25,774 bases of DNA, from contig NW_021833211.1 in NCBI RefSeq assembly GCF_006345805.1, positions 1 through 25,774 of the forward strand. The letters run 5' to 3'. This stretch comes from Octopus sinensis. Taxonomy: Eukaryota. The notes under the pieces are model-generated. The model saw only the letters and a list, made by a program, of their open reading frames with translations. It did no database searches and had not been told where the DNA came from. Shown here in pieces: positions 3,151 to 25,774 of the stretch (position 1 is the first letter of the stretch; every line of letters begins with the position of its first letter). A program made the position numbers and the translations under genes.

Positions 3151-4262
3151 TATCAGGCTGAGTAAAAAGTAAGCAACGTTTTGAAACATGAAATTCGTCA
3201 CAATGTATTTCAGCAATGCGGAAATTTTATTCATCAAAGTCTGTACCATTACTATAAACACATTTTTGCCAATGAGTTACAAAGTTTGTTTGTTCCGTTA
3301 ACATAAAAATCTGGAGTTCTGGAGTTGATGGACTCTTTGCACGCGCTTTCAGCATCGGTTTGATTTTTGAACTCCTTCTCTCGAAGGAAACCATAAAGAT
3401 ACTTGAAAAAGTGGTAGACGTTGGGAGAAAGGTCTGGGGAATAGGCTGAGTAGGGAAGAACTTCGTAGCCAAATTCTCTCATCTTCTGGAGCGTCATGAA
3501 GAATGATTGGGCCTCTTCTGTTGACCAGTCTGAGACAGAGGAGTAGCAGTTTTTCGTACACATTGGCAATTTCTTGGTAATATGTTTCTGCAGTAAAGGT
3601 TTTTCGGGGTTTTAATAAGTTATAGTCGATCAGTCCAACAGCACATCACTAAACAATCACCATAATCTCTTTTTTGAAGAGATCGGGTTTAGGGAAGCTT
3701 TTCGGTGCTTCATTTGGGTCCATCCACTGCGAAAAACATTTTCTATTATTATACAGAATCTACTTTTCATCGCAAATACGGTCAAGAATTGGATCGGTCT
3801 GGTTTCGGCGAAGAAGTGACGAGCACATTTCATAAGTTCACATTTTCTGATTTTCATTCAAATCGTGTGGTACTCAAATGTCGAGCTTTTCTGATTTTCC
3901 GATCGCATGCAAATGGTTTCAGGCATTTTCTGGTTAACTTGAAGTTCTTTTGCCAATTTTCGAGTGGTTTTACGTGGGTCTTCCTCAATGACGGTCTTCA
4001 ATTGACCGTCATCGATGACAGACGGGGGACCACTACGCTTATGATCTTCAGGTTTCCACTGCTAAATCGTTTAAACCATTTTCAAGCTGACCACTACTGG
4101 TCATTTCCTCACCAAACGTTTCGTTGACATCGCGAGCAGTTTCAGCTGCTTTACATCCTTTTTTGATGTTGAATAGCAAAATTTATCGAATATCGCGCTT
4201 TGACAATTGCATTTCAGATGATTGCAACAACGGTGAAAAAAATATCAATGTTAATTTATTGA
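3151..4262 (-). mobile_element. Tc1/mariner (mariner-family) element lacking one TIR
   Basis: TA (3151-3152) followed by TCAGGCTGAGTAAAAAGTAAGCAACG, a mariner-type TIR. No matching inverted copy is seen at the other end. Right boundary is approximate. Confidence 0.85.
3227..4212 (-). pseudogene. Mariner transposase pseudogene (Mos1/SETMAR-type)
   Basis: ATG at 4212 (MQLSKRDIR*ILLFNIKKGCKAAETARDVNETFG), *VPHDL (WVPHEL motif), CDEK, ILHD, PYSAYSPDLSPNVYHFF (YSPDLAPxD motif, last D>V), C-terminal WQKCVYSNGTDFDE* ending at 3227. Several stops and frameshifts. Confidence 0.92.
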
Positions 4263-5714: not shown

Positions 5715-5789
5715 AATAATAATAATATTAATAATAATAATAATAACAACAACAACAATAATAATAATATTAATAATAATAATAATAAT
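5715..5789. repeat. (AAT)n/(AAC)n microsatellite
   Basis: Directly visible trinucleotide repeats. Confidence 0.95.
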
Positions 5790-6476
5790 GCCCTTATGCA
5801 GTACCAGACAGTGGCCCTCATGACTCCTGATCTTAACTGATTGGAAATGTTATCATGTACATTGTTTTGTCTTGGTATAAAAGATGGGCTACAGCAAATA
5901 TTCTGCTCAATACCACAGATTTGCTAATGCCCTGATGCAGTACCAGGCAGTGGCTCTCATGGCTTCTGATCTTAATTGATTGGTAGTGTTATCATGTACA
6001 TTGTTTTGTCTTGGTATAAAAGATGGGCTACAGCAAATATTCTGCTCAATACCACAGATTTGCTTGTCAGTTGCTTGACCATAACCAGTTGAGCATGTCC
6101 CTTATTGGGTGACGATATGTGCATCTCTGATCACGAGCAGAAGTACTGGGGGAGCATCATAAACATGTATTGAGAGGAATCCTTTGGGGTTTGAATAATT
6201 CACCTCTGGAAACATGGGTGGTTCGTTCAACATCCTTAAACAACCCTTATTCAGGGACCTTTTGGGCGGGATGGGTTACTCGACCAGACGAAAATTCTAA
6301 CTGGGCCCCACCTGCAAGGTCATGTGCTGTTTATCTTAATATGAGATCACCATGTCGCACACATATGGTTGTGATTAATGGTGTACCCTTATCAGATGGG
6401 TAGTCATGATGGGAATACTGGGCTTCGTATATTTTACCCCAGTGTCACTTTGATGGCATCCACTGCTCTCACACTC
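5786..6476 (-). mobile_element. AAT-flanked interspersed element (non-autonomous retroelement or 5' piece of an R4/Dong-like LINE) with a 139-bp terminal duplication
   Basis: A GC-richer block sharply bounded by (AAT)n at both ends. 5786-5924 is repeated at 5925-6063. No recognisable protein domain. Family and strand are inferred. Confidence 0.55.
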
Positions 6477-7600: not shown

Positions 7601-7889
7601 AGATGTGTGTAGGAGTGCGTTTGTGTTTGTGTGTATGTGTGTGTTTGGTATATTCTTTGATATTATTACGCGTTAAAGCTATAATATTTTTATAAATTTC
7701 TTCACACTAATTTATCGAAATTTAATTTTTTAGCTTTAAATATCCAATCACGAAAACAAAAATATATTTGTCATGTGGAACAGGGGTGAATTTTAGTTCC
7801 TTCGGAGAATCTGCAATTTGAAGTTAATAACATTGAAATCTCTGACATTCCTATTTTCTTCTTTTACAGATAAATCTACGCCTGGCAAT

Positions 7890-8080
7890 ATGTTTCACCA
7901 CGTAGATATCAATAGACGGTCTCTTGTGTTGATACTGTGTACGATATTGTTTTTGGAGACTCAAGCTGATTCAGATATATGCAAGAAATGTACTTGCAAT
8001 TCACTTACAACGAGAATAAATTGTACACATCGCAATTTACCATCGATTCCACAACCAATTCCGACGAATGTTGAATATTT
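7890..8080 (+). CDS. First visible coding exon of an extracellular leucine-rich-repeat protein (signal peptide + LRRNT cap)
   Basis: Acceptor ttttcttcttttacAG at 7869, so the exon starts at 7870. ATG at 7890 gives MFHHVDINRRSLVLILCTILFLETQADSD, a hydrophobic signal-like segment, then ICKKCTCNSLTTRINCTHRNLPSIPQPIPTNVEYL (C..C.C......C....L..IP..IP, LRRNT). Donor TT|GTAAGT at 8080/8081, phase 2. Subfamily (Slit-like, TLR, LGR etc.) cannot be determined. Confidence 0.92.
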
Positions 8081-8541
8081 GTAAGTATTTGACACTTTCT
8101 ACGTATTTTCCACATCCAATATTTTAAATTCTCATTGATTATGTTCTCAGCTAATCGCTTATGCTGTTTATCTCACAGCTTTAAGCACAATCTTATGTTA
8201 GAGTAAAACAAATCGATATGTTGCCTGCTGTGAAGTCAAATAAACTGTTTCTTACCATATTGAATAATTTATAATATATAACACCGCATACACAGTGATT
8301 GGATCTGACTAGTATCTGACTTTGATGTTATTTGTCTGAACTTATCAAATCTTACGGTATATTCAATGAACGGACAGTATAAAAACTTTAGTGCTAAGAA
8401 AACGTGTATTCCACATAGTTATATTATATCATTAATTAGTTGAATTGTTGCTTCTAGTTACAGTAATATGATATAATATCATTTGATCGTGTCACATAAT
8501 AATTGTTAATTATTGTTTGTGTTAGTTTTATAATAGAATAT

Positions 8542-9530: not shown

Positions 9531-10419
9531 CCATAACAGTTCAATGAACAAATGCAACTATGAGGACCTCGAATAAGACACCTTGCAGTATATTGTCCAG
9601 TTGTTTGTGATCTGAGTTAAAATCCCACACTTTTTATTTTACCGATTTTGGAGAAAGGATCAGACAAGTTTTATAACTCCTGCAAGATATCCAATACTTG
9701 TGAGACAGATATCATTAATATTCCGTTTGAGCTGTTTACAGGAATGATGAACAGGGATGTTATTTAGGAGATGAAGGATTTAGCATATGTGGTTAATAAT
9801 GGGAACAAACTGAGGTTTAATACAGCAAGAGTAAGGAGCAAAGGACAAAAGAAAGACGAAAAAACAAAGGCAATGTATGTTGTCTCATCCCTTTTTTAAA
9901 TAACACCCTTAACCAGTTAAATCACCATGTAAGGTTGTTCTCCCTTGTAGCACATAACTCAAAATTATATCAGGGTTTCCCCACTCTACCATCACCAATT
10001 CTATTAATAAATCCCTTTCTATTTCTATTATGTTTTCCTTCCTAGTCTATTATTTCAGTCTTGAAGTTTTGGGGGTTTATTTATTTTTGTGAAGAACTTT
10101 TATGCATCAACTAATCAAAGGAAAGGAGTTTACTTTTGCAAAGATAAATTACTTTTGACAGAAAAGTGTAATAACAAATGGAATGCTCATTGGACAGAAA
10201 CAAGATATTTATAAATAAAGCTGACTTCTGAGATGATAAAAATATCTTCCATTGAATACTGAATACGAAGGCTTTGTAAATCTAATTCAAATCACAAATA
10301 TTCTGAACATCCATTCTTTTCTCATATTTTACATGCCTGTGTGTTTTTCATTCATACTTCACGCGGTGATTTAAATCTGTTTTATATCTTATATAATAAA
10401 CTCCCAGTAAATCGAACAG

Positions 10420-11150
10420 AACCTTCGTGAAGAAGAAACGGAAGCCTTACAAACTGAAGAATGACAATTCAATCATCCTAAAAGAAAACGATTAGGGAAG
10501 GGTGATAGCAGTCACGGACCAAGACTACTATAAAGATAAAATATTGGAAACAGACCAATCCTGCTAAAAGGAAGAACCAAGACACCCGGAGAAAGTAATA
10601 ATGAATACACCCAAAAGTCTGATAAATGAATACCAATGTTCGTTCACAAATAAAGGGAAAAATTATTTATGCAGCTCTGTAATGAAAGAGAGTAATTCCT
10701 ATGGATCACCCAAGATCTACGAATGCTCCAAACTGCAGGAACCAGCAGATAAACATATTAAGACCTACTGACATCAAATTGAAACCAACAGTTGCTGGAC
10801 CTTGAGCCCCAACACAACAACTGAGCCATCTTTTGGATATACTCCTTAAACCGTTATGCCCATTAATGCCCAGCTATACCCGAGACGATATGGATTTCCT
10901 CAAACACATTCCAGAACGTATTATATTTACAATCTTTGACTAATCTTTATCCTAATACATCAGACTTTGGGCCTGGAAGCAATCAAACACTGGGTAGAAA
11001 AGCATAACGGACGGACGAACGAACGCTTCAAAACGCATTTCCAAAGACACACACCTGGAACTAGAAGACAACACCTTTAGATTCGATAATAAACTATATC
11101 GACATATAAAAGGACATCACTACAGAGACGAGGTTCGCACACATTCCCGC
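10420..11150 (+). pseudogene. Penelope-like element reverse transcriptase remnant (intronic)
   Basis: Frameshifted fragments in order: LKNDNSIILKEND*G (IIIK.ADKG motif), VTDQDYYKDKILE, SNSYGSPKIY (FYGLPKIH), LKPTVAGP*APTQQLSHLLDILLKPLCPLMPSYTRDDMDFLKHIPE (RPIV...SYIRD..DFL), TNLYPN, LEDNTFRFDNKLYRHIK. Confidence 0.85.
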
Positions 11151-11159
11151 ACCCAGAGG

Positions 11160-11242
11160 TAGATATACATATGTGTGTATATTTCTGCGAGCATACGTGT
11201 GTATGTGCGTATATGTGTATGTATGTGTGTGTATGTGTGTGT
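11160..11242. repeat. Imperfect (GT/AT)n microsatellite
   Basis: Directly visible. Confidence 0.85.
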
Positions 11243-11327
11243 TGATACATAGACAGGCGAAGTGGATACTCGATGTTGTACAAGTCAAGTCAGAAATAAA
11301 CACGAAACGGCTGCCACATTAAGACAT

Positions 11328-11930
11328 TCTTCTTCTTCTTCTTCTTCTTCTTCTTCTTCTTCTTCTTCTTCGTTTTCTTTTTTTTCTTCTTCTTCTTCTC
11401 CTACTTCGTTTCTTCTTTTCATGCCTCTCCTGCCCCACCTCTCTCACCACCCTTACATCTCTACCTCCTCCTCCTCCATTCTTCTTTCCCTTCTTCTACT
11501 ATTTCTTCTCATTCTTCTTCTTCTTCTTCTTCTTCTTCGTCTTCAACTTCTTTTCCTTCTGTTTCTTCTAATTCTATTTCTTCTTTTCTTCTTCTTCTTC
11601 TTCTTCTTCTTCTTCTTCTCTTTCATAAATCATTCCCGTACTTTCTGCTTCTTCACTTTTTCTACTATTTCTTTTACTTATTCTCATTGACTTACTTCTC
11701 CTGCCCCACCTGCCCCTCTTCTCTCCTACTCCTCCTCTCTCTTCCTCTTCTTCCTCCTACACTCTCTTCTTCCTCCTACCCTCTCTTCCTCCTCCTACCC
11801 TCTCTTCCTCATCATCCCCATCTTCTTCCCCCTCACCCCCATCCTCCTCCTCCTCCTCCTCCTTTGTTCATCCTTATCATCTTCTTCTTCTTCTTCTTCG
11901 TTAACGCTCTTCTTTTTCTTCCTTTAATTC
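11328..11930 (+). repeat. About 600-bp polypyrimidine low-complexity tract with (CTT)n and (CCT)n runs upstream of the LRR exon
   Basis: Directly visible. It explains the spurious Ser/Leu/Phe/Pro-rich ORFs at 11262-12004. Confidence 0.9.
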
Positions 11931-12004
11931 TGAAGCCACAGTTTTTGATGTCGTATCACAAATATTTTCCATCTAATCTTTTTACTCTTTCTTTACTGCT
12001 ATAG

Positions 12005-12076
12005 AAATCTGCTAGGGAACAACATTGCAACCATCAAAGAAGGGACCTTCACGGGGCTTTCGAAATTAAAGTCATT
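12005..12076 (+). CDS. 72-nt exon encoding one 24-aa leucine-rich repeat of the same gene
   Basis: Acceptor ctttctttactgctatAG (12004) with a CTAAT branch-like motif upstream, and donor TT|GTAAGT (12076/12077); phase 2-2. Splicing to 8080 gives VEYL-NLLGNNIATIKEGTFTGLSKLKS(L), matching LxLxxNxIxxIxxxxFxxLxxLxxL. Too short to appear in the ORF track. Confidence 0.92.
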
Positions 12077-13189
12077 GTAAGTTCGTTCAGTTTCTTAATA
12101 CTATTTTCTGAAAGTAATATTTGATGCTGATATATACACTCATTACCCAAAAATCTTTCAGACTGCGCTAAACAAAATCAATTTAAAGTTCGAGACCGAG
12201 CATGAGTTTGGAAGATAAAAGGAGGGAGTAAGAGGGGGAGACATAGTGAGAGAAAGCGGGAGAAATTGAGAGATAACGTGAAATAAAAGGACAATTCTAA
12301 TGCTCCTTTATTGCAGCTGTTTCAATTCAGGTCACCATAACTCATTTTTGATCCTCAAATTTCAATTATTTTTTCTTGTATTTGTATTTGTGAGTTTACA
12401 TGTTTGCATCAAATATTTTTAGCTGAAGTATGTGTGTATGTTCATATATAAGTGTACTTCCGTGTGAAATGTGATTTATATTATTCCTTTATTTTATAAT
12501 TTGTCTCCTCCTTCATTTCTCATTTCAATCTCCTTCGTGAATCGATATTATCATTCAACTTCGACTTTTCGACTCCTTTCACTTTATTTATGTGATAGAC
12601 AAACTGAAGTGGAAGCGGAACATATATATACATTCTATCTGTAAACCTGAAATACTTACTGCACTTGTAAGCTGGAATATTTGGCCTGATACAATTTAAC
12701 TTCTGATATATTTCTAGTTAGAGGGTGTTTTCTAATATCACTTTCTTGTGTCAATTAAGCGATATGAAATTAATAATCTCTCTCGCCATATTTCCACACA
12801 GGTGAGTGAGAATATGTGTAAATGTGAGTGTGCGAATCACCTTACGTCGTTGATATTATGAATATAAGTATGTGTATGAGTGCATTCGAATATTTTGACT
12901 TCCTAGTCAGTATATTCCCTCATTTTTCAGCTATGTTGTCTCCCTCAAACGTTTCTTCCATGTCCCTGAATTATCTCATGATTTTTCTTTGACTACCTTT
13001 TCTGTTTCACCCTCATGAACACCTTGATTTTCAATGTGTCTCCTTCTTTTTCTTCTTCCATATCTTTCTGTTCTTCTTCTTCTTTTTCTTTATCTCCCCT
13101 GTCTCCTCTGCCTCCTTCATCCTCCTCCATCATTTTCTTTTCCTTCAACTTCTTCTTCTTCTATTTGTTTTCCCTCCACATTCTTTTTC

Positions 13190-16100
13190 TTCTCCTTTTT
13201 CTTTCTCTTCTTCTCATTTTCCATAAACTTACTCCAGTACTTTCTCCTTGATCACATTTCTCCTTTTTCTTTCTCTTCTTCTCATTTTCCATAAACTTAC
13301 TCCAGTACTTTCTCCTTGATCACATTTCTTCTTCTTCTTTCTCTTCTGTTTATTTTCCATAAACTTACTCCAGTACTTTCTCCTTGATCACATTTCTCCT
13401 TTTTCTTTCTCTTCTCTTCATATTCCATAAACTTACTCCAGTAAATTCTGCTTGATCACATTTCTCCTTTTTCTTTCTCTTCTCCTCATTTTTCATAAAC
13501 TTACTCCAGTACTTTCTCCTTGATCACATTTCTCCTTTTTCTTTCTCTCCTCCTCATTTTCCATAAAATTAATCCAGTACTTTCTCCTTGATCACATTTC
13601 TCCTTTTTCATTCTCTTCTCCTCATTTTCCATAAACTTACTCCAGTACTTTCTCCTTGAAAACATTTCTCCATTTTTTTTCTCTTCTCTTCATATTCCAT
13701 AAACTTACTCCAGTAAATTCTGCTTGATCACATATTCTCCTTTTTCTTTCTCTTCTCCTCATTTTTCATAAACTTACTCTAGTACTTTCTCCTTGATCAC
13801 ATTTCGCCTTTTTCTTTCTCTTCTCCTCATTTTTCATAAACTTACTCCAGTACTTTCTCCTTGATCACATTTCGCCTTTTTCTTTCTCTTCTTCTCATTT
13901 TTCATGAACTTACTCCAGTACTTTCTCCTTGATCACATTTCACCTCTTTCTTTCTCTTCTCCTCATTTTCCATAAACTTACTCCAGCACTTTCTCCTTGA
14001 TCACATTTCTCCTTTCTCTTTCTCTTCTCCTCAGTTTTCATGAATTTACTCCAGTACTTACTCCTTGATCACATTTCTCCTTTTTCTTTCTTTTCTCCTA
14101 ATTTTTCATAAATTTACTCCAGCACTTTCTCCTTGATCACATCTCTCCTTTTTCTTTCTCTTCTCCTCCTTTTCCATAAACTTACTCCAGTACTTACTCC
14201 TTGATCACATTTCATAACTTACTACAGTACTTTCTCCTTGATCACATTTCTCATTTTTCTTTCTCTTCTCCTCATTTTCCATAAACTTAATCCAGTACTT
14301 TCTCCTTGATCACATTTCTTCTTTTTCTTTCTCTTCTCCTCATTTTTCATAAACTTACTCCAGTACTTTCGCTTGATCACATTTCTTCTTTTTCTTTCTC
14401 TTCTCCTCATTTTTCATAAACTTACTCCAGTAATTTCTCCTTGATCACATTTCTTCTTTTTCTTTCTCTTCTCCTCATTTTTCATAAACTTACTCCAGTA
14501 CTTTCTCCTTGATCACATTTCTTCTTTTTCTTTCTCTTCTCCTCATTTTTCATAAACTTACTCCAGTACTTTCTCCTTGATCACATTTCTCCTTTTACTT
14601 TCTCATCTCCTCATTTTTCATAAACTTACTCCAGTACATTCTTCTTGATCACAATTCTCATTTTTATTTCTCTTCACCTCATTTTCCATAAACTTAATCC
14701 AGTCCTTTCTCCTTGATCACATTTCTTCATTTTTTTCTCTTCTCCTCATATTCCATAAACTTACTCCAGTACTTTCTCCTTGATCACAATTCTCATTTTT
14801 ATTTCTCTTCACCTCATTTTCCATAAACCTAAACCAGTCCTTTCTCCTTGATCACATTTCTCCTTTTTCTTTCTCTTCTCCTCATTTTTCATAAATTTAC
14901 TCCAGTGATTTCTTCTTGATCACATTTGTCATTTTTCTTTCTCTTCTTCGCATTTTCCATAAACTTACTCCAGTACTTTCTCCTTGATCACATTTCTTCT
15001 TTATCTTTCTCTTCTTCTCATTTTTCATAAACTTACTCCAATACTTTCTGCTTGATCAAATTTCTTCTTTTTCTTTCTCTTCTTCTCATTTTTCATAAAC
15101 TTACTCCAATACTTTCTGCTTGATCACATTTCTCCTTTTTCTTTCTCTTCTCCTCATTTTTCATAAATTTACTCCAGTAATTTCTCCTTGATCACATTTC
15201 TCCTTTTTCTTTCTCTTCTTCTTATTTTCCATAAACTTAATCCAGTACTTTCTCCTTGATCACATTTCTCCTTTTTCTTTCTCTTCTCCTCATTTTTCAT
15301 AAATTTACTCCAGTACTTTCTCCTTGATCACATTTCTCCTTTTTCTTTCTCTTCTCCTCATTTTCCATAAACTTACTCCAGTACTTTCTCCTTGATCACA
15401 TTTCTCCTTTTTCTTTCTCATCTCCTCATTTTCCATAAACTTACTCCAGCACTTTCCCCTTGATCACATTTCTTCTTTTTCTTTCTATTCCTCATTTTCC
15501 ATAAACTTACTCCAGCACTTTCCCCTTGATCACATTTCTTCTTTTTCTTTCTCTTCTTCTCATTTTTAATAAACTTACTCCAGTACTTTCTCCTTGATCA
15601 CATTTCTCTTTTTCTTTCTCTCTCCTCATTTTACATAAACTTACTCAGTACTTTATCCTTGATCACATTTCGCTTTTTCTTTCTCTTCTCCTCATTTTTC
15701 ATAAACTTACTCCAGTACTTTCGCCTTGATCACATTTCGCCTTTTTCTTTCTCTTCTTCTCATTTTTCATGAAGTTACTCCAGTACTTTCTCCTTGATCA
15801 CATTTCACCTCTTTCTTTCTTCTCCTCATTTTCCATAAACTTACTCCAGCATTTCTCCTTGATCACATTTCTCCTTTTCTTTCTTTCTTCCTAATTTTTC
15901 ATAAATTACTCCAGCAATTTCTCCTTGATCACATCTTCCTTTTTCTTTCTCTTCTCCTCTTTCCCATAAACTTACTCCAGTACTTACTCCTGATCACATT
16001 TCTTCTTTTTCTTTCTTTTCTCCTAATTTTTCATAAACTTACTACAGTACTTTTCCTTGATCACATTTCTCATTTTTCTTTCTCTTCTCCTCATTTTCCA

Positions 16101-19100
16101 TAAACTTACTCCAGTACTTTCTCCTTGATCACATTTCTTCTTTTTCTTCTCTTCTCTCATTTTCATAAACTTACTCCAGTACTTTCGCTTGATCACATTC
16201 TCTTTTTCTTTCTTCTCCTCATTTTCATAAATTACTCCAGTATTTCTCCTTGATCACATTTCTTCTTTTTCTTTTCTTCTCCTCATTTTTCATAAACTTA
16301 CTCCAGTACTTTCTCCTTGATCACATTTCTTCTTTTTCTTTCTTTTCTCCTCATTTTCATAAACTTACTACAGTACTTTTCCTTGATCACATTTCTCCTT
16401 TTACTTTTCTCTCCTCATTTTCATAAACTTACTCCAGTACATTCTCCTTGATCACAATTCTCATTTTTATTTCTCTTCACCTCATTTTCCATAAACTTAA
16501 TCCAGTCCTTTCTCCTTGATCACATTTCTTCATTTTTTTCTCTTCTCTAATTCCATAAACTTATCTCAGTACTTTCTCCTTGATCACATTCTCATTTTTA
16601 TTTCTCTTCACCTCATTTTCATAAACTTAAACCAGTCCTTTCTCCTTGATCACATTTCTCTTTTTCTTTCTCTTCTCCTCATTTTCATAAACTTACTCCA
16701 GTATTTCTTCTTGATCACATTTGTCATTTTCTTCTCTTCTTCGCATTTTCCATAAACTTACTCCAGTACTTTCTCCTTGATCACATTTTCTTCTATCTTT
16801 CTATTCTTCTCATTTTCATAAACTTACTCCAATACTTTCTGCTTGATCAAATTTCTTCTTTTCTTTCTCTTCTTCTCATTTTCATAAACTTACTCCAATA
16901 CTTTCTGTGATAACATTTCTCCTTTTCCTTTCTCTTCTCTCATTTTCATAAATTTACTCCAGTAATTTCTCCTGATCACATTTCTCCTTTTTCTTTCTCT
17001 TCTTCTTATTTTCCATAAACTTAATCCAGTACTTCTCCTTGATCACATTTCTCCTTTTTCTTTCTTCTCCTTATTTTAATAAATTACTCCAGTACTTTCT
17101 CCTTGATCACATTTCTCCTTTTTCTTTCTCTTCTCCTCATTTTCCATAAACTTACTCAAGTACTTTCTCCTTGATCACATTTCTCCTTTTTCTTTCTCAT
17201 CTCCTCATTTTCCATAAACTTACTCCAGCACTTTCCCCTTGATCACATTTCTTCTTTTTCTTTCTCATCTCCTCATTTTCCATAAACTTACTCCAGCACT
17301 TTCCCCTTGATCACATTTCTTCTTTTTCTTTCTCTTCTTCTCATTTTTAATAAACTTACTCCAATACTTTCTGCTTGATCACATTTCTTCTTTTTCTTTC
17401 TCTTCTTCTCATTTTACATAAACTTACTCCAGTACTTTATCCTTGATCACATTTCTCCTTTTTCTTTCTCATCTCCTCATTTTCCATAAACTTACTCCAG
17501 CACTTTCTCCTTGATCAAATCTCTCCTTTATATTTCTCTTCTCCTCATTTTCCATAACCTTACTCCAATACTTTCTCCTTGATCACATTTCTCCTTTTTC
17601 TTTCTCTTCTCCTCATTTTACATAAACTTACTCCAGTACTTTATCCTTGATCACATTTCTCCTTTTTCTTTCTCATCTCCTCATTTTCCATAAACTTACT
17701 CCAGTACTTTCTCCTTGATCACAATTCTCATTTTTATTTCTCTTCACCTCATTTTCCATAAACTTACTCCAGTCCTTTCTCCTTGATCACATTTCTTCTT
17801 TTTCTTTCTCTTCTCCTCATTTTCCATAAACTTACTCCAGTAATTTCTCCTTGATCACATTTCTTCTTTTTCTTTCTCTTCTCTCATTTTCCATTAACTT
17901 ACTCCAGTACTTTCTCCTTGATCACATTTCTCCTTTTTCTTTCTCTCTCATTTTCCATAAACTTACTCCAGTACTTTCTCCTTGATCTCATTTCTCCTTT
18001 TTCTTTCTCTTCTCCTCATTTTTCATAAACTTACTCCTGTTCTTTCTCCTTGATCACATTTCTTCTTTTTCATTCTCTTCTTCTCATTTTCCATTAACTT
18101 TCTCCAGTACTTTCTCCTTGATCACATTTCTCCTTTTTCTTTCTCTTCTACTCATTTTCCAGAAACTTATTCAATTACTTTCTCCTTGATCACATTTCCT
18201 TTTTCTTTTCTTCTATCTCATTTTCATAAACTTACTCCAGTACTTTCTCCTTGATCACATTTCTCCTTTTTCTTTCTCATCTCCTCATTTTCCATAAACC
18301 TACTCCAGTACGTTCTCCTTGATCACATTTCTCCTTTTTCTTTCTCTTCTCCTCATTTTCCAAAAACTAAATCCAGCACTTTCTCCTTGACCACATTTCT
18401 CCTTTTTCTTTCTCTTCTCCTCAGTTTTCATAAACTTACTCCAGTGCTTACTCCTTGATCACATTTCTCCTTTTTCTTTCTCTTCTGTTTCTTTTTCATA
18501 AAATTAATCCAGTACTTTCTCCTAGATCACATTTCTCCTTTTTCTTTCTCTTCTCCTCATTTACCATAAACATACTCCAGTACTTTCCCCTTGATCACAT
18601 TTCTTCTTTTTCTTTCTCTTCTCCTCATTTTTCATAAACTTACTCCAGCACTTTCTCCTTGATCACATTTCTTCTTTTTCTTTCTCTTCTTTTCATTTTC
18701 CATAAACTTACTCCAGTACTTTCTCCTTGATCAAATTTCTCCTTTTTCTTTCTCATCTCCTCATTTTTCATAAAATTACTCCAGTACTTTCTGCTTGATC
18801 ACAATTCTCCTTTTTCTTACTCTTCTTCTCATTTTCCATATACTTACTCCAGTACTTTCTCCTTGATCACATTTCTCCTGTTTCTTTCTCTTCTCCTCGT
18901 TTTTCATAAACTTACTCCAGTACTTTCTCCTTGATCACATTTCTTCTTTTCTTTCTCTTCTCTCATTTTCATAAACTTACTCCAGTACTTTCTCCTTGAT
19001 CACATTCTTCTTTTCTTTCTCTTCTTTTCATTTTCAATAAACTTACTCCAGTACTTTCTCCTTGATTAAATTCTCCTTTTTCTTTCTCATCTCCTCATTT

Positions 19101-22100
19101 TCATAAAATTACTCCAGTACTTTCTGCTTGATCACATTTCTTCTTTTCTTACTCTCTTCTCATTTTCCAATTCTTTCTCCAAGTACTTTCTCCTTGATCA
19201 CATTTCTCCTTTTTTTCTCTTCTCCTCATTTTTCATAAACTTACTCCAGTACTTTCTCCTTGATCACATTCTCCTTTTTCTTCTTTTCTCCTAATTTTCA
19301 TAAACTTACTCCAGTACTTTCTCCTTGATCACATTTCTCCTTTTTCTTTCTTTCTCCTCATTTTCCATAAACGTACTCCAGTCTTTCTCTTGATCACATT
19401 TCTCCTTTATTTTCTCCTCATTTTACATAAACTTACTCCAGTACTTTCTCCTTGATCACATTTCTCTTTTTCTTTCTCTTCTCCTCATTTTCCATAAACT
19501 TATTCCAGTACTTTTCCTTGATCACATTTCTCCTTTTTCTTTCTCTTCTCCTCATTTTTCATAAACTTACTCCAGTTCTTTCTCCTTGATCACATTTCTT
19601 CTTTTATTTCTCTTACTCTCATTTTCCAAAAACTTACTCCAGTATTTCTCCTTGATCACATTCTTCTTTTTCTTTCTCTTCTCTCATTTTCCATAAACTT
19701 ACTCCAGTACTTCTCCTTGATCACATTTCTCCTTTTCTTCTCTCCTCATTGTCCATAAACTTACTCCAGTACTTCTCCTTGATCACATTCTCCTTTTCTT
19801 TCTCTTCTCCTCATTTTCATAAACTTACTCTGTTACTTTCTCCTTGATCACATTTTCTTTTTCTTTCTCTTCTTCTCATTTTCCATAACTTACTCCAGTA
19901 CTTTCTCCTTGATCACATTTCTCCTTTTTCTTTCTCTTCTACTCATTTTCCATAAACTTATTCAGTACTTTCTCCTTGATCAGATTTCCCCTTTTTCTTT
20001 CTCTTCTCATTTTCCATAAACTTACTCCAGTACTTTCTCCTTGATCACATTTCTCCTTTTTCTTTCTCTTCTCCTCATTTTCCATAAACTTACTCCAGTA
20101 CTTTCTCCTTGATCACATTTCTCCTTTTTCTTTCTCTTCTCCTCATTTTCCATAAATTGACTCCAGTACTTTCTCCTTGATCACATTTCTCCTTTATCTT
20201 TCTCTTCTCCTCATTTTCATAAACTTACTCCAGTTCTTTCTCCTTGATCACATTTCTCCTTTTTCTTTCTCTTCTTCTCATTTTCCATAAACTTACTCCA
20301 GTACTTTCTCCTTGATCACATTTCTCCTTTCTTTCTCTTCTCCTCATTTACATAAACTTACTCCAGTACTTTCTCCTTGATCACATTTCTTCTTTTTCTT
20401 TCTCTTCTCCTCATTTTTCATAAACTTACTCCAGTACTTTCTCCTTGATCACATTTTTCTTTTTCTTTCTCTTTTTTCTTTGTAAACTTACTCCAGTACT
20501 TTCTCCTTGATCACATTCTCTTTCTCTTTCTCTTCTCCTCATTTCATAAACTTACTCCAGTACTTTCTCCTTGATCACATTTCTCCTTTTTCTTTCTCTT
20601 CTCCTCATTTTTCATAAACTTACTCCAGTATTTTCTCCTTGATCACAATTCTCATTTTTATTCTCTTCACCTCATTTTCCATAAACATAATCCAGTCCTT
20701 TCTCCTTGATCACATTTCTTCTTTTTTTTCTCTTCTCCTCATTTTCCATAAACTTACTCCAGTATTTCTCCTTGATCACATTTCTCTTTTTCTTTCTCTT
20801 ATTCTCATTTTCCATAAACTTACTCCAGTACTTTCTCCTTGATCACATTTCTCCTTTTTCTTTCTCTCTCATTTTCCATAAACTTACTCCAGTACTTTCT
20901 CCTTGATCTCATTTCTCCTTTTCTTTCTCTTCTCCTCATTTTTCATAAACTTACTCCTGTTCTTTCTCCTTGATCACATTTCTTCTTTTTCATTCTCTTC
21001 TTCTCATTTTCCATTAACTTACTCCAGTACATCTCCTTGATCACATTTCTCCTTTTTCTTTCTCTTCTAATCATTTTCAGAAACTTTCTATTACTTTCTC
21101 CTTGATCACATTTCCTTTTTTTTTCTCTTCTTATTTTTCATAAACTTACTCCAGTACTTTCTCCTTGATCACATTCTCCATTCTTCTCATCTCCTCATTT
21201 TTCCATTAACCTACCCAGTACTTTCTCCTTGATCACATTCACCTTTTCTTTCTCTTCTCCTCATTTTCCATAAACTTACTCCAGCACTTTCTCCTTGATC
21301 ACATTTCTCCTTTTTCTTTCTCTTCTCCTCAGTTTTCATAAACTTACTCCAGTGCTTACTTGATCACATTTCTCCTTTTTCTTTCTCTTCTCCTCTTTTT
21401 AAAACTTACTCCAGTACTTTCTCTTGATCACATTTCTCCTTTTTTCTTCTCTTCTCCTCATTTACCATAAACATACTCCAGTACTTTCCCTTGATCACAT
21501 TTCTTCTTTTTCTTTCTCTTCTCTCATTTTTCATAAAACTTACTCCAGCACTTTCTCCTTGATCACATTTCTTCTTTTCTTTCTCTTCTTTTCATTTCCA
21601 TAAACTTACTCCAGTACTTTCTCCTTGATCAATTTCTCCTTTTCTTTCTCATCTCTCATTTTTCATAAATTACTCCAGTACTCTGCTGATCACATTTCTC
21701 CTTTTTCTTTCTCTTCTTCTCATTTTTCATAACTTACTCCAGTACTTCTCCTTGATCACATTTCTCCTTTTTCTTTCTCTTCTCCTCATTTACCATAAAC
21801 TTACTCCAGTAACTTTCCCTTGATCACATTTCTTCTTTTACTTTCTCTTCTCCTCATTTTTCATAAACTTACTCCAGCACTTTCTCCTTGATCTATTTCT
21901 TCTTTGTTTTCTTCTTTCATTTTCCATAACTTACTCCAGTACTTTCTCCTTGATCACATTTCTCCTTTTCTTTCTCTCTCCTCATTTTCATAAAATTACT
22001 CCAGTACTTTCTGCTTGATCACAATTCTCCTTTTCTTACTTCTTCCTCATTTTCCATTACTTACTCCAGTACTTTCTCCTTGATCACATTACTTCTTTTC

Positions 22101-25100
22101 TTTCTTTTCTCTAATTTTCAATAAACTTACTCCAGTACTTTCTACTTGATCACACATTTCTCCTTTTTCTCGTTTTCTCATTTCCATAAACGTACTCCAA
22201 GTAATTTATCCTTGATCAATTTCTCCTTTTTCTTTCTCTTCTCTCATTTACGTAAACTTACTTCAGAACTTTCTCCTTGATCACATTTCTCTTTTTCTTC
22301 TGTTCTCCTCATTTCCATAAATTTATTCCAGTACATTCTCCTTGATCACATTCTCCTTTTTCTTTCTCTTCTCCTCATTTTCCAAAACTTACTCCAGATT
22401 CTCCTTGATCACATTTCTCCTCTTTCTTTTCTTCTTCTCATTTTCCATAACTTACTCCAGACTTTCTACTTGATCACATTTCTCCTTTTTTTTTCTCTTC
22501 TCATTTTCCATAAAATTACTCAGTACTTTCTCCTTGATCACATTCTCTTTTTTCTTTCTCTTCTCCTCATCTTCCATAAACTTACTCAAGTACTTTTCCT
22601 TATCACATTTCTCCTTTTTCTTCTCATCTCCTCATTTTCCATAAACTTACTCCAGCACTTTCCCCTTGACAAATTTCTCTTTTTCTTTCACTTCTTTCAT
22701 TTTTAAGAAACTTACTCCAATACTTTCTGCTTGATCACATTTCTCTTTTCTTTCTCTTCTTCTCATTTTACATAAACTTACTCCAGTACTTTCTCCTTGA
22801 TCACATTTCTCCTTTTTCTTTCTCTTTCCTCATTTTCCATAAACTTACTCCAGTACTTTCTCCTTGATCTCATTCTCCTTTTTCTTTCTCTCTCCTTCAT
22901 TTTTCATAAACTTACTCTGTTCTTTTCCTTGATCACATTTTCTTTTTTCATTCTTTCTTCTCATTTCCAAACTACTCCACTCAGTACTTTCTCCTTGATC
23001 ACATTTTCCTTTTTCTTTCTCTTCTAATCATTTTCCGAACTTTTTCATTACTTTCTCCATGATCAATTTCCCTTTTTTCTTCTTCTTCTTATTTTTCATT
23101 AAACTTACTCAGTACTTTCTCCTTGATCACATTTCTCCATTTTCTTTCTCATCTCCTAATTCCATAAACCTACTCCAGTATGTTCTCCTTGATCACATTT
23201 CTCCTTTTCTTTCTCTTCTCCTCATTTTCCAAAAAACTAATCCAGAACTTTCTCCTTGACCACATTTCTCCTTTTTCTTTCTCTTCTCCTCAATTTTCAT
23301 AACTTACTCCAGTGCTTACTCCTTGATCACATTTCTCCTTTTTCTTTCTCTTCTGTTTCTTTTTCATAAAATAACAAAACAATCCAGTACTTTCTCCTAG
23401 ATCACATTTCTCCTTTTTCTTTCTCTTCTCCTCATTTACCATAAAAATACTCCAGTACTTCCCCTTGATCACATTTCTCCTTTTCTTTCTCTTCTCCTCA
23501 TTTTTCATAACTTACTCCAGCACTTTCTCCTTGATCACATTTCTTCTTTTCTTTCTCTTCTTTTCATTTTCCAAAACTTACTCAGTACTTCTCCTTGATC
23601 AAATTTCTCCTTTTTCTTTCTCTTCTCTCATTTTTCATAAAATTACTCCAGCTTTCTGCTTGATCACAATTCTCCTTTTTCTTACTCTTCTTCTCATTTT
23701 CCATATACTTACTCCAGTACTTTCTCCTTGATCACATTTCTCCTTTTTCTTTCTCTTCTCCTCATTTACCATAAACATACTCCAGTACTTTCCCCTTGAT
23801 CACATTTCTTCTTTTTCTTTCTCTTCTCCTCATTTTTCATAAACTTACTCCAGCACTTTCTCCTTGATCACATTTCTTCTTTTTCTTTCTCTTCTTTTCA
23901 TTTTCCATAAACTTACTCCAGTACTTTCTCCTTGATCAAATTTCTCCTTTTTCTTTCTCATCTCCTCATTTTTCATAAACTTACTCCAGTACTTTCTGCT
24001 TGATCACAATTCTCCTTTTTCTTACTCTTCTCCTCATTTTCCATAAACTTACTCCAGTACTTTCTCCTTGATCACATTACTCCTTTATCTTTCTTTTCTC
24101 CTAATTTTTCATAAACTTACTCCAGTACTTTCTCCTTGATCACATTTCTCCTTTTTCTTTCTTTTCTCCTCATTTTCCATAAACGTACTCCAGTAATTTA
24201 CCCTTGATCACATTTCTCCTTTTTCTTTCTCTTCTCCTCATTTTACGTAAACTTACTTCAGTACTTTCTCCTTGATCACATTTCTCTTTTTCTTTCTCTT
24301 CTCCTCATTTTTCATAAACTTACTCCAGTACTTTCTCCTTGATCACATTTCTCCTTTTTCTTTCTCTTTCTCTCTTCTCCTCATTTTCCATAAACTTTCC
24401 AGCACTTTCTCCTTGACCACATTTCTCCTTTTTCTTTCTCTTCTCCTCAGTTTTCATAAACTTACTCCAGTGCTTACTCCTTGATCACATTTCTCCTTTT
24501 TCTTTCTCTTCTGTTTCTTTTTCATGAAATTAATCCAGTACTTTCTCCTAGATCACATTTCTCCTTTTTCTTTCTCTTCTCCTCATTTACCATAAACATA
24601 CTCCAGTACTTTCCCCTTGATCACATTTCTTCTTTTTCTTTCTCTTCTCCTCATTTTTCATAAACTTACTCCAGTACTTTCTCCGTGATCACATTTCTTC
24701 TTTTTCTTTCTCTTCTTTTCATTTTCCATAAACTTACTCCAGTACTTTCTCCTTGATCAAATTTCTCCTTTTTCTTTCTCATCTCTCATTTTACGTAAAC
24801 TTACTTCAGTACTTTCTCCTTGATCACATTTCTCTTTTTCTTTCTCTTCTCCTCATTTTCCATGAACTTACTCCAGTACTTTCTCCTTGATCACATTTCT
24901 CCTTTTTCTTTCTCTTCTCCTCATTTTTCATAAACTTACTCCAGTATTTTCTCCTTGATCACAATTCTCATTTTTATTTCTCTTCACCTCATTTTCCATA
25001 AACTTAATCCAGTCCTTTCTCCTTGATCACATTTCTTCTTTTTCTTTCTCTTCTCCTCATTTTCCATAAACTTACTCCAGTATTTCTCCTTGATCACATT

Positions 25101-25774
25101 TCTTCTTTTTCTTTCTCTTATTCTCATTTTCCATAAACTTACTCCAGTACTTTCTCCTTGATCATATTTCTCCTTTTTCTTTCTCTCCTCATTTTCCATA
25201 AACTTACTCCAGTACTTTCTCCTTGATCTCATTTCTCCTTTTTCTTTCTCTTCTCCTCATTTTTCATAAACTTACTCCTGTTCTTTCTCCTTGATCACAT
25301 TTCTTCTTTTTCATTCTCTTCTTCTCATTTTCCATTAACTTACTCCAGTACTTTCTCCTTGATCACATTTCTCCTTTTTCTTTCTCTTCTAATCATTTTC
25401 CAGAAACTTTTTCAATTACTTTCTCCTTGATCACATTTCCCTTTTTTTCTTTCTCTTCTTATTTTTCATAAACTTACTCCAGTACTTTCTCCTTGATCAC
25501 ATTTCTCCATTTTCTTTCTCATCTCCTCATTTTCCATAAACCTACTCCAGTACGTTCTCCTTGATCACATTTCTCCTTTTTCTTTCTCTTCTCCTCTCAT
25601 TTTCCAAAACTAATCCAGCACGTTCTTTCTCCTTGACCACATTTCCCTTTTTCTTTCTCTTCTCCTCTCTTCTTTTTCATAAACTTACTCCAGTGCTTAC
25701 TCCTTGATCACATTTCTCCTTTTTCTTTCTCTTCTGTTTCTTTTTCATAAAATTAATCCAGTACTTTCTCCTAG
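13190..25774 (+). repeat. Tandem satellite/minisatellite array, 68-bp monomer, roughly 185-190 copies, open at the right edge
   Basis: Consensus TTGATCACATTTCTCCTTTTTCTTTCTCTTCTCCTCATTTTCCATAAACTTACTCCAGTACTTTCTCC. The period is confirmed by TTGATC at 13248 and 13316. Each unit has 55/68 pyrimidines, 2 G, one TGATCA and one AGTACT palindrome. Copy number is estimated as length divided by period. Confidence 0.98.

What the first reader, a model, noticed from the sequence alone, without database searches (positions are those of the whole stretch)
11618..11688. Diverged single copy of the satellite monomer in the preceding intron: a possible birthplace of the array
Seen: TTCATAAATCATTCCCGTACTTTCTGCTTCTTCACTTTTTCTACTATTTTCTTTTACTATTCTCATT aligns colinearly with the monomer TTCATAAACTTACTCCAGTACTTTCTCCTTGATCACATTTCTCCTTTTTCTTTCTCTTCTCCTCATT. 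GTACTTTCTGCTT occurs exactly in array variants. The upstream tracts also share ordered motifs (CCTCCTCCAT, CTTCAACTTCTT, CTATTT) between about 11420-11580 and 13090-13170. Inference: the two introns have paralogous 3' portions from duplication of an intron+LRR-exon unit, and in one copy a 68-bp segment amplified to more than 12 kb. Prediction: the next 72-nt LRR exon lies a few hundred bp past the array end, behind sequence resembling 11690-12004. Caveat: low complexity inflates similarity.
Basis: partly seen in the sequence, partly recalled or inferred. Interest (0 to 1): 0.75.

Follow-up and report, generated by a model that had tools for sequence, protein, structure and literature searches.

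The report
Satellite born inside octopus receptor intron
The 68-base sequence is a real single copy of the neighbouring tandem repeat, but it is only one of many such singles in the repeated introns of an octopus receptor gene family; the long array likely grew in place from a different single copy in the next intron, and a sister gene still shows a matching spot with just one copy.

Summary
The single copy at 11622-11688 is real: 78% identical to the array consensus, and none of 2000 shuffles reach its score. It is probably not the birthplace. The window is the 5' end of an octopus LRR (adhesion-GPCR family) gene built of repeated intron + 72-nt exon units. In 121 such units I found 23 single monomers; 11 of the other 22 are closer to the array than this one, which groups with singles of contig C11856. 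Paralogues hold one monomer where the window's array starts. In C1622 one array-like monomer lies between a match to the window's pre-array flank and a match to the flank after an array end in C12213, where an LRR exon follows 514 bp on. The repeat core occurs only in four array contigs and in LRR units (434 of 434). So the array likely arose in place, by tandem duplication of its own intron's single copy. Caveat: the array contigs overlap at 99% and joins through them are inferred. The scan found this gene family before on other DNA, not this satellite. Precedents: CapA, minisatellite birth. Interest 0.4.

The parts
7870..8080 (+). Coding exon for the N-terminus (hydrophobic leader, LRRNT-like cysteine cap) of an octopus LRR/adhesion-GPCR family gene; ATG at 7890, phase-2 donor at 8081
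   Evidence: 21 of 21 homologues are Octopus LRR proteins, 77-91% identical; LRRNT below cut-off; 31 copies at >=91% among 40 scored, some on redundant contigs
11327..11621 (+). TTC/TC microsatellite-rich tract upstream of the single copy
   Evidence: not more like the pre-array tract than 4- and 5-mer shuffles
11622..11688 (+). Single diverged monomer (the finding): one of at least 23 singles in LRR intron units; a relative, not the likely source, of the array
   Evidence: short-read contig with no difference over 11632-11824
11881..12004 (+). Acceptor flank of the intron-exon unit, repeated family-wide
   Evidence: 121 copies in 44 fetched stretches; about 90% like the flank before the exon that follows array A in C12213
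12005..12076 (+). 72-nt phase 2-2 LRR exon (NLLGNNIATIKEGTFTGLSKLKS), AG and GT intact
12077..13040 (+). 5' part of the next intron, 74-91% identical to paralogous units; in C12516, C3171, C29:2.07 Mb and C29:3.23 Mb it is followed by one monomer
13041..13165 (+). Pre-array flank, a TC-rich module that also precedes the single monomer at C1622:4475
   Evidence: score 144, 0 of 300 shuffles at k=2, 4, 5; the module is also in 7 other LRR-unit places with no monomer directly behind
13190..25772 (+). 68-bp tandem array, about 188 copies, 4.9% mean substitution from consensus, cut by the contig end; 14370-25774 is about 99% identical to the end of reverse-complemented C12213

Best explanation
The copy at 11622-11688 is one of many single 68-bp intron modules that sit in the repeated intron + LRR-exon units of an octopus LRR/adhesion-GPCR gene family, and the array likely grew in place from a different single copy in the next intron (at 13219). 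Shown: singles are widespread in these units and diverse (mean pairwise identity 73%), the arrays are uniform (about 95% to consensus) and confined to four unplaced, partly overlapping contigs, and paralogues hold one monomer at the array's position. [quoted passage not shown] The single at 11622 was likely carried into its intron with a C11856-type unit and never amplified. No function is needed or shown; the array is likely spliced out as part of a very long intron.
For: Singles: 53 HMM hits and 0 in the reversed control; 23 with the full core, 19 distinct; 23 of 23 lie on the gene strand within 145-1342 bp of an LRR-unit landmark. Confinement: 366 of 366 exact matches to the array-type core lie in C9682, C12213, C11665, C6512; of 434 matches to a core shared with singles, 429 are in these arrays and 5 in LRR-unit contigs. 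Position: C12516, C3171, C29:2.07 Mb and C29:3.23 Mb have one monomer (77-88%) 144-174 bp after the same intron segment that precedes the array by 182 bp. Empty site: C1622:4424-4476 shares the array states A18 and A33, its 5' flank matches window 13041-13165 (0 of 300 shuffles) and its 3' flank matches the DNA after array A in C12213 (86% over 228 bp; 0 of 300), and the next two exons come in the same order. Tree: holding the arrays with the C1622 or C12516 single costs nothing (p-AU about 0.5); with the 11622 single it costs 23.3 lnL. Tandem copies are in short-read contigs of three species labels (runs X1, X6, X9; 31 or more letters on both sides of the first monomer junction). Mechanism precedent: PMC6947457 citing Haber and Louis 1998.
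Against: The link between the window's 5' junction and C12213's 3' junction is not assembled. The window's array from 14370 on is about 99% identical to C12213's other array (B), so one of the two contigs may be mis-joined. The 5' junction was not tested by reads (13179-13221 skipped as repeat). The AU test does not formally exclude the 11622 single (p 0.069), the tree has 67 columns and unsettled bootstraps, and arrays were not one clade in the free search. C1622 is a paralogue at about 85%, not an allele; its 5' flank module also occurs at 7 other LRR-unit places with scores 128-160 and no monomer behind. C12516/C3171 singles are closer to the consensus (88%) than C1622 (84%), yet their flanks do not beat 4- and 5-mer shuffles, so the tracts are mosaics. 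The array's 5' edge has about 30 extra bases of degraded partial unit.
Confidence: 0.7

Rival explanations
1. One reading: the copy at 11622 is the founder. Its intron-exon unit duplicated in tandem and the copy in the duplicate amplified.
For: Adjacent, same strand, 78% identical, ends in the same CTCATT; the exon after array A in C12213 is about 90% like the window's exon 12005-12076 with flanks; AU test p 0.069 does not reject it.
Against: 11 of 22 other singles are closer to the array; it has C18, G28, T33 where arrays have A, C, A; it groups with C11856 singles (98/96); its flanks do not match array flanks beyond 4- and 5-mer shuffles.
Confidence: 0.07
2. The array arose elsewhere in the gene cluster (for example array B) and was put into this intron by ectopic recombination or conversion using the resident single monomer as homology.
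For: A second array (B, 44 kb) starts abruptly in mid-monomer in another intron of C12213, so arrays seem able to appear at new introns; all arrays share one consensus.
Against: Both flanks of array A match a site with one array-like monomer in register; array B, not A, has the abrupt junction.
Confidence: 0.12
3. Assembly artefact: the intron has a short run of monomers that the assembler joined to a satellite lying elsewhere.
For: The window and C12213 share 11.4 kb at about 99% and end within 14 bp of each other; C11665 and C12213 share about 11 kb; all four contigs are unplaced.
Against: The first 1.2 kb (about 17 monomers) of the window's array has no near-identical copy in the other array contigs (best 92%); all three assembled junctions with unique DNA are in LRR introns. 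An artefact would change the array's length, not its origin.
Confidence: 0.08
4. The singles are remnants or dispersed offspring of the satellite, or part of a genome-wide dispersed repeat.
For: Arrays can contract and seed copies (general knowledge).
Against: Singles share states that arrays lack (C18 in 13 of 19, G28 in 10 of 19), are far more diverse than arrays, and 434 of 434 core matches are in arrays or LRR units. Three weak BLAST places on C5, C16 and C654 that I fetched gave no HMM hit.
Confidence: 0.03

Closest known systems
CapA satellite of New World monkeys from a NOS1AP intron (bioRxiv 10.1101/213868; whole text read; supplements not seen)
   Same: A tandem repeat traced to an intronic sequence that survives unamplified elsewhere.
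   Different: CapA is about 1,500 bp, up to 100,000 copies, heterochromatic, and proposed to have moved before amplifying. Here the unit is 68 bp, roughly 1,100 non-redundant copies are assembled, the array stands in an intron of the same family, and unamplified copies survive in paralogous introns of the same genome.
Minisatellite birth between short flanking direct repeats (Haber and Louis 1998, seen only as cited in PMC6947457; passages read)
   Same: A unique motif flanked by very short repeats is duplicated by slippage or unequal crossing-over, then expands; the C1622 single has a TC-rich imperfect repeat pair 62 bp apart.
   Different: Array length here (12.6 kb to 44 kb assembled) is of satellite scale; the flanking repeats are low-complexity, so the exact first breakpoints cannot be fixed.
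Octopus-specific adhesion GPCR expansion, group 3 (Ritschard et al. 2019, PMC6408891; passages read)
   Same: Host family: homologues of the window's exon include LRR + GPS + 7tm_2 proteins (P0012).
   Different: The passages seen do not treat intron modules or satellites; the window holds only the 5' end, so GPS and 7TM are not shown for this copy.
[quoted passage not shown]
   Same: LRR genes built of tandem fixed-length exons with phase-2 introns, shuffled by unequal crossing-over.
   Different: 72-nt exons in an animal receptor family; no shared ancestry tested or implied.

Membership tests
Satellite/minisatellite tandem array | Long head-to-tail array of a non-coding unit | tested here: met
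   187.9 copies of 68 bp; 584+32+47, 27, 488 and 83 hits in the other contigs
Satellite/minisatellite tandem array | Homogenised copies | tested here: met
   4.6-6.1% substitution from one consensus in 7 of 7 array parts
Satellite/minisatellite tandem array | Heterochromatic, centromeric or subtelomeric location | not testable with these tools
   All four array contigs are unplaced; no chromatin data
Intron-derived satellite (CapA-like origin) | Unamplified homologue persists as a single intronic copy | tested here: met
   23 singles in LRR units; one monomer at the array's position in paralogues
Intron-derived satellite (CapA-like origin) | Single state is older than the array, shown in outgroup species | tested here: inconclusive
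   Diversity and shared states point that way; no outgroup genome was searchable; tandem copies occur in three species labels
Intron-derived satellite (CapA-like origin) | Array relocated away from the source intron | tested here: not met
   All three assembled junctions lie in LRR introns; this is in-place growth
   the tree test alone is inconclusive (p-AU 0.069)
Genome-wide dispersed repeat | Copies outside the gene family | tested here: not met
   434 of 434 exact core matches in arrays or LRR-unit contigs; diverged copies elsewhere would be missed
Octopus LRR adhesion GPCR (group 3) | N-terminal LRR region homologous to family members | tested here: met
   84.5% over 71 aa to P0012 and LRR exon match
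Octopus LRR adhesion GPCR (group 3) | GPS and 7TM domains in this gene copy | not testable with these tools
   The contig ends in the array; the 3' part of the gene is not linked

The most novel reading that the evidence does not exclude
The intron-born satellite has spread to a second intron and now brackets a pair of LRR exons (C12213: array A, two exons, array B), so unequal exchange between the arrays would add or drop LRR exons: a young satellite acting as a shuffling device for a variable receptor, with its before and after states both kept in one genome.
Probability: 0.12. Interest if true: 0.65.

Novelty: new member of a known kind. Interest (0 to 1): 0.4.

Why it matters
The origin of a given satellite can rarely be traced (stated in 10.1101/213868). 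Here the unamplified state, a series of diverged relatives and the amplified state lie in paralogous introns of one gene family, so the first steps (which copy, which flanks, which new variants) can be read and tested across octopus species. It also shows an intron of 12.6 kb or more of tandem DNA in a receptor gene with intact exons. It is a clean example, not a new principle.

Tried and rejected
Upstream-tract paralogy of 11330-11621 and 13030-13218: not above 4- and 5-mer shuffles. The shared 13-mer as a sign of descent: it is the ancestral state common to singles and rare in arrays (the 'G26' and 'C17' columns printed there were mis-indexed and are not used; the per-position table is). Weak BLAST places on C5:105.4 Mb, C16 and C654: low-complexity matches only; those on C8, C9, C19, C50 were not fetched. 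C12516/C3171 as exact empty sites: right position, but near flanks fail shuffle tests. Monomer tree: mostly unresolved (29 of 39 inner branches open). Read support for junction B: one contig of run X2 (depth 17.3, same sample as X1) covers bins across it but with under 31 letters on the unique side and is not in the list of pieces; the other three runs show no bridge; treated as no verdict. Summed contig depths were not used as copy numbers. No RNA holder listed. Pfam found nothing in four ORF remnants at 1.2-5.6 kb. Literature searches listed no paper on this satellite or on satellites in octopus LRR genes; the library lacks most subscription papers. Earlier-finding look-ups by place and by sequence were empty.

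Full report
Observation. The window is the whole of contig C9682 of a 2.72-Gb genome. A 68-bp array runs from 13190 to the contig end, 187.9 copies. The single copy lies at 11622-11688 and is 78% identical to the array consensus. It is not a low-complexity accident: 0 of 2000 shuffles keeping 2-, 3- or 4-mers reach its score, and 0 of 500 shuffles of the whole pyrimidine tract do. A short-read contig repeats 11632-11824 letter for letter (run X1, possibly the source sample). The claimed likeness of the two upstream tracts does not hold once 4- or 5-mers are kept (213 and 372 of 500; 171 and 230 of 300).

Host gene. An exon at 7870-8080 encodes an N-terminus whose 21 of 21 homologues are Octopus LRR proteins, several named adhesion GPCRs; P0012 carries LRR, GPS and 7tm_2. 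A phase 2-2 exon of 72 nt at 12005-12076 encodes one LRR. The exon with its intron flanks is a repeated unit: 39 other copies at 84-89% among 40 scored of 174 candidates, and 31 copies of the first exon at 91% or more among 40 scored, some on redundant contigs. This fits the octopus-specific group 3 of PMC6408891 (passages read) and three earlier notes of this scan.

The single copy is one of many. I fetched 44 stretches (708 kb) around family members; they hold 121 acceptor flanks. A profile of the monomer's 5' core found 53 hits and none in the reversed control; 23 have the full core, 19 distinct. All 23 lie on the gene strand within 145-1342 bp of a unit landmark. They are diverse (mean pairwise 73%), while every array part lies 4.6-6.1% from one consensus. 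Genome-wide, 366 of 366 exact matches to the array-type core lie in four unplaced contigs, and 434 of 434 matches to a core shared with singles lie in those arrays (429) or in LRR-unit contigs (5; four checked in held DNA, one read from the list). So the monomer is neither a dispersed repeat nor a chance likeness.

It is probably not the founder. 11 of the other 22 singles are closer to the consensus (79-88%). At positions 18, 28 and 33 arrays have A, C, A (95, 94, 99%); the 11622 copy has C, G, T, like most singles. In the tree it joins three C11856 singles (98/96), and its 3' flank matches theirs (0, 2, 1 of 300 shuffles). Forcing it with the arrays costs 23.3 lnL but p-AU is 0.069, so the tree alone does not exclude it; forcing the C1622 or C12516 single with the arrays costs nothing (67 columns, rough support).

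Where the array began. In C12516, C3171, C29:2.07 Mb and C29:3.23 Mb one monomer stands 144-174 bp after the intron segment that precedes the window's array by 182 bp; in three of the four the next LRR exon follows within about 500 bp. C12213, read on its minus strand, shows an array end at 46106, then 514 bp, a 72-nt LRR exon (45592-45521) that matches window 11881-12135 at about 90% with its flanks, a second LRR exon (45038-44967), and a second array of 44 kb. C1622:4424-4476 is a single monomer with A18 and A33; its 5' flank matches window 13041-13165 (0 of 300 shuffles), its 3' flank matches the DNA after the C12213 array end (86% over 228 bp, 0 of 300), and the next two exons come in the same order. 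Among 22 matches to that 3' flank only C1622 and C13298 are strong. The 5' flank is a module that also occurs at 7 other LRR-unit places with no monomer directly behind, so only the combination singles out C1622. It is a paralogous empty site at about 85%, not an allele.

Mechanism (inferred). The C1622 single is bracketed by an imperfect TC-rich direct repeat 62 bp apart. [quoted passage not shown] Unequal exchange and conversion then lengthen and homogenise the array (PMC5615363, passages read). Short-read contigs that bridge two monomers occur in runs of three species labels (X1, X6, X9), so the tandem state is not private to one animal. No function is shown.

Against, and open. The window's array from 14370 on is about 99% identical to the last 11.4 kb of C12213's second array, and C11665 shares about 11 kb with C12213. 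The contigs are overlapping assemblies of one locus or a few, and at least one join through the satellite may be wrong. The window's first 1.2 kb of array is its own (best match elsewhere 92%). The 5' junction could not be tested with reads. The second array starts abruptly in mid-monomer after a TTG tract; read support is one short contig, so whether it is real is open. No outgroup genome could be searched.

Comparison and verdict. The closest precedent is CapA, a primate satellite from a single intronic sequence (10.1101/213868, whole text read; supplements not seen); there the sequence is thought to have moved before amplifying, here it grew within the gene family's introns. [quoted passage not shown] Searches listed nothing on this satellite. 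Verdict: observation partly confirmed, first reading partly supported, new member of a known kind, interest 0.4.

Noticed in passing
G000:C12213:39171-41310 (L024): A 2.1-kb block of 32 monomers is inverted inside the 44-kb array, with 2-3 shared bases at each junction.
   Followed up: partly
G000:C12213:44432-46106 (L039:433-2107): Two intact 72-nt LRR exons lie between two arrays; the second array starts in mid-monomer after a TTG tract.
   Followed up: partly
window 14370-25774 and G000:C12213:1-11400: About 99% identical over 11.4 kb, both contigs ending within 14 bp of the same place: redundant assembly or a very recent duplication.
   Followed up: partly
window 13219-25772: The array's derived A18 creates a CAG about 22 bases after a CTCAT motif in every unit, a weak look-alike of a branch point and 3' splice site on the gene strand; most singles lack the AG (splice motif recalled, untested).
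   Followed up: no
G000:C1622:3600-4190 (L064): An insertion of about 600 bp made of two inverted copies of a dispersed element interrupts the 3' flank of the empty site (seen).
   Followed up: no
G000:C1622:1-16784: This contig alone holds 8 of the 23 full singles, in several subtypes, two introns with two copies each about 400-500 bp apart.
   Followed up: partly
G000:C12213:45860-45950 and C13298:568-621: A second, more degraded monomer lies about 150-200 bp after the array end, also in paralogues.
   Followed up: partly
window 10381-11170: A 790-bp segment that looks like a retroelement remnant (label recalled, untested) is at the same place in intron 1 of many paralogues at 86-96%.
   Followed up: no
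window 3252-3645 (-): Broken ORFs with a mariner-like YSPDL motif (recalled); Pfam gave no hit.
   Followed up: partly
window 5786-6064: A 139-bp unit repeated twice at 94%.
   Followed up: no
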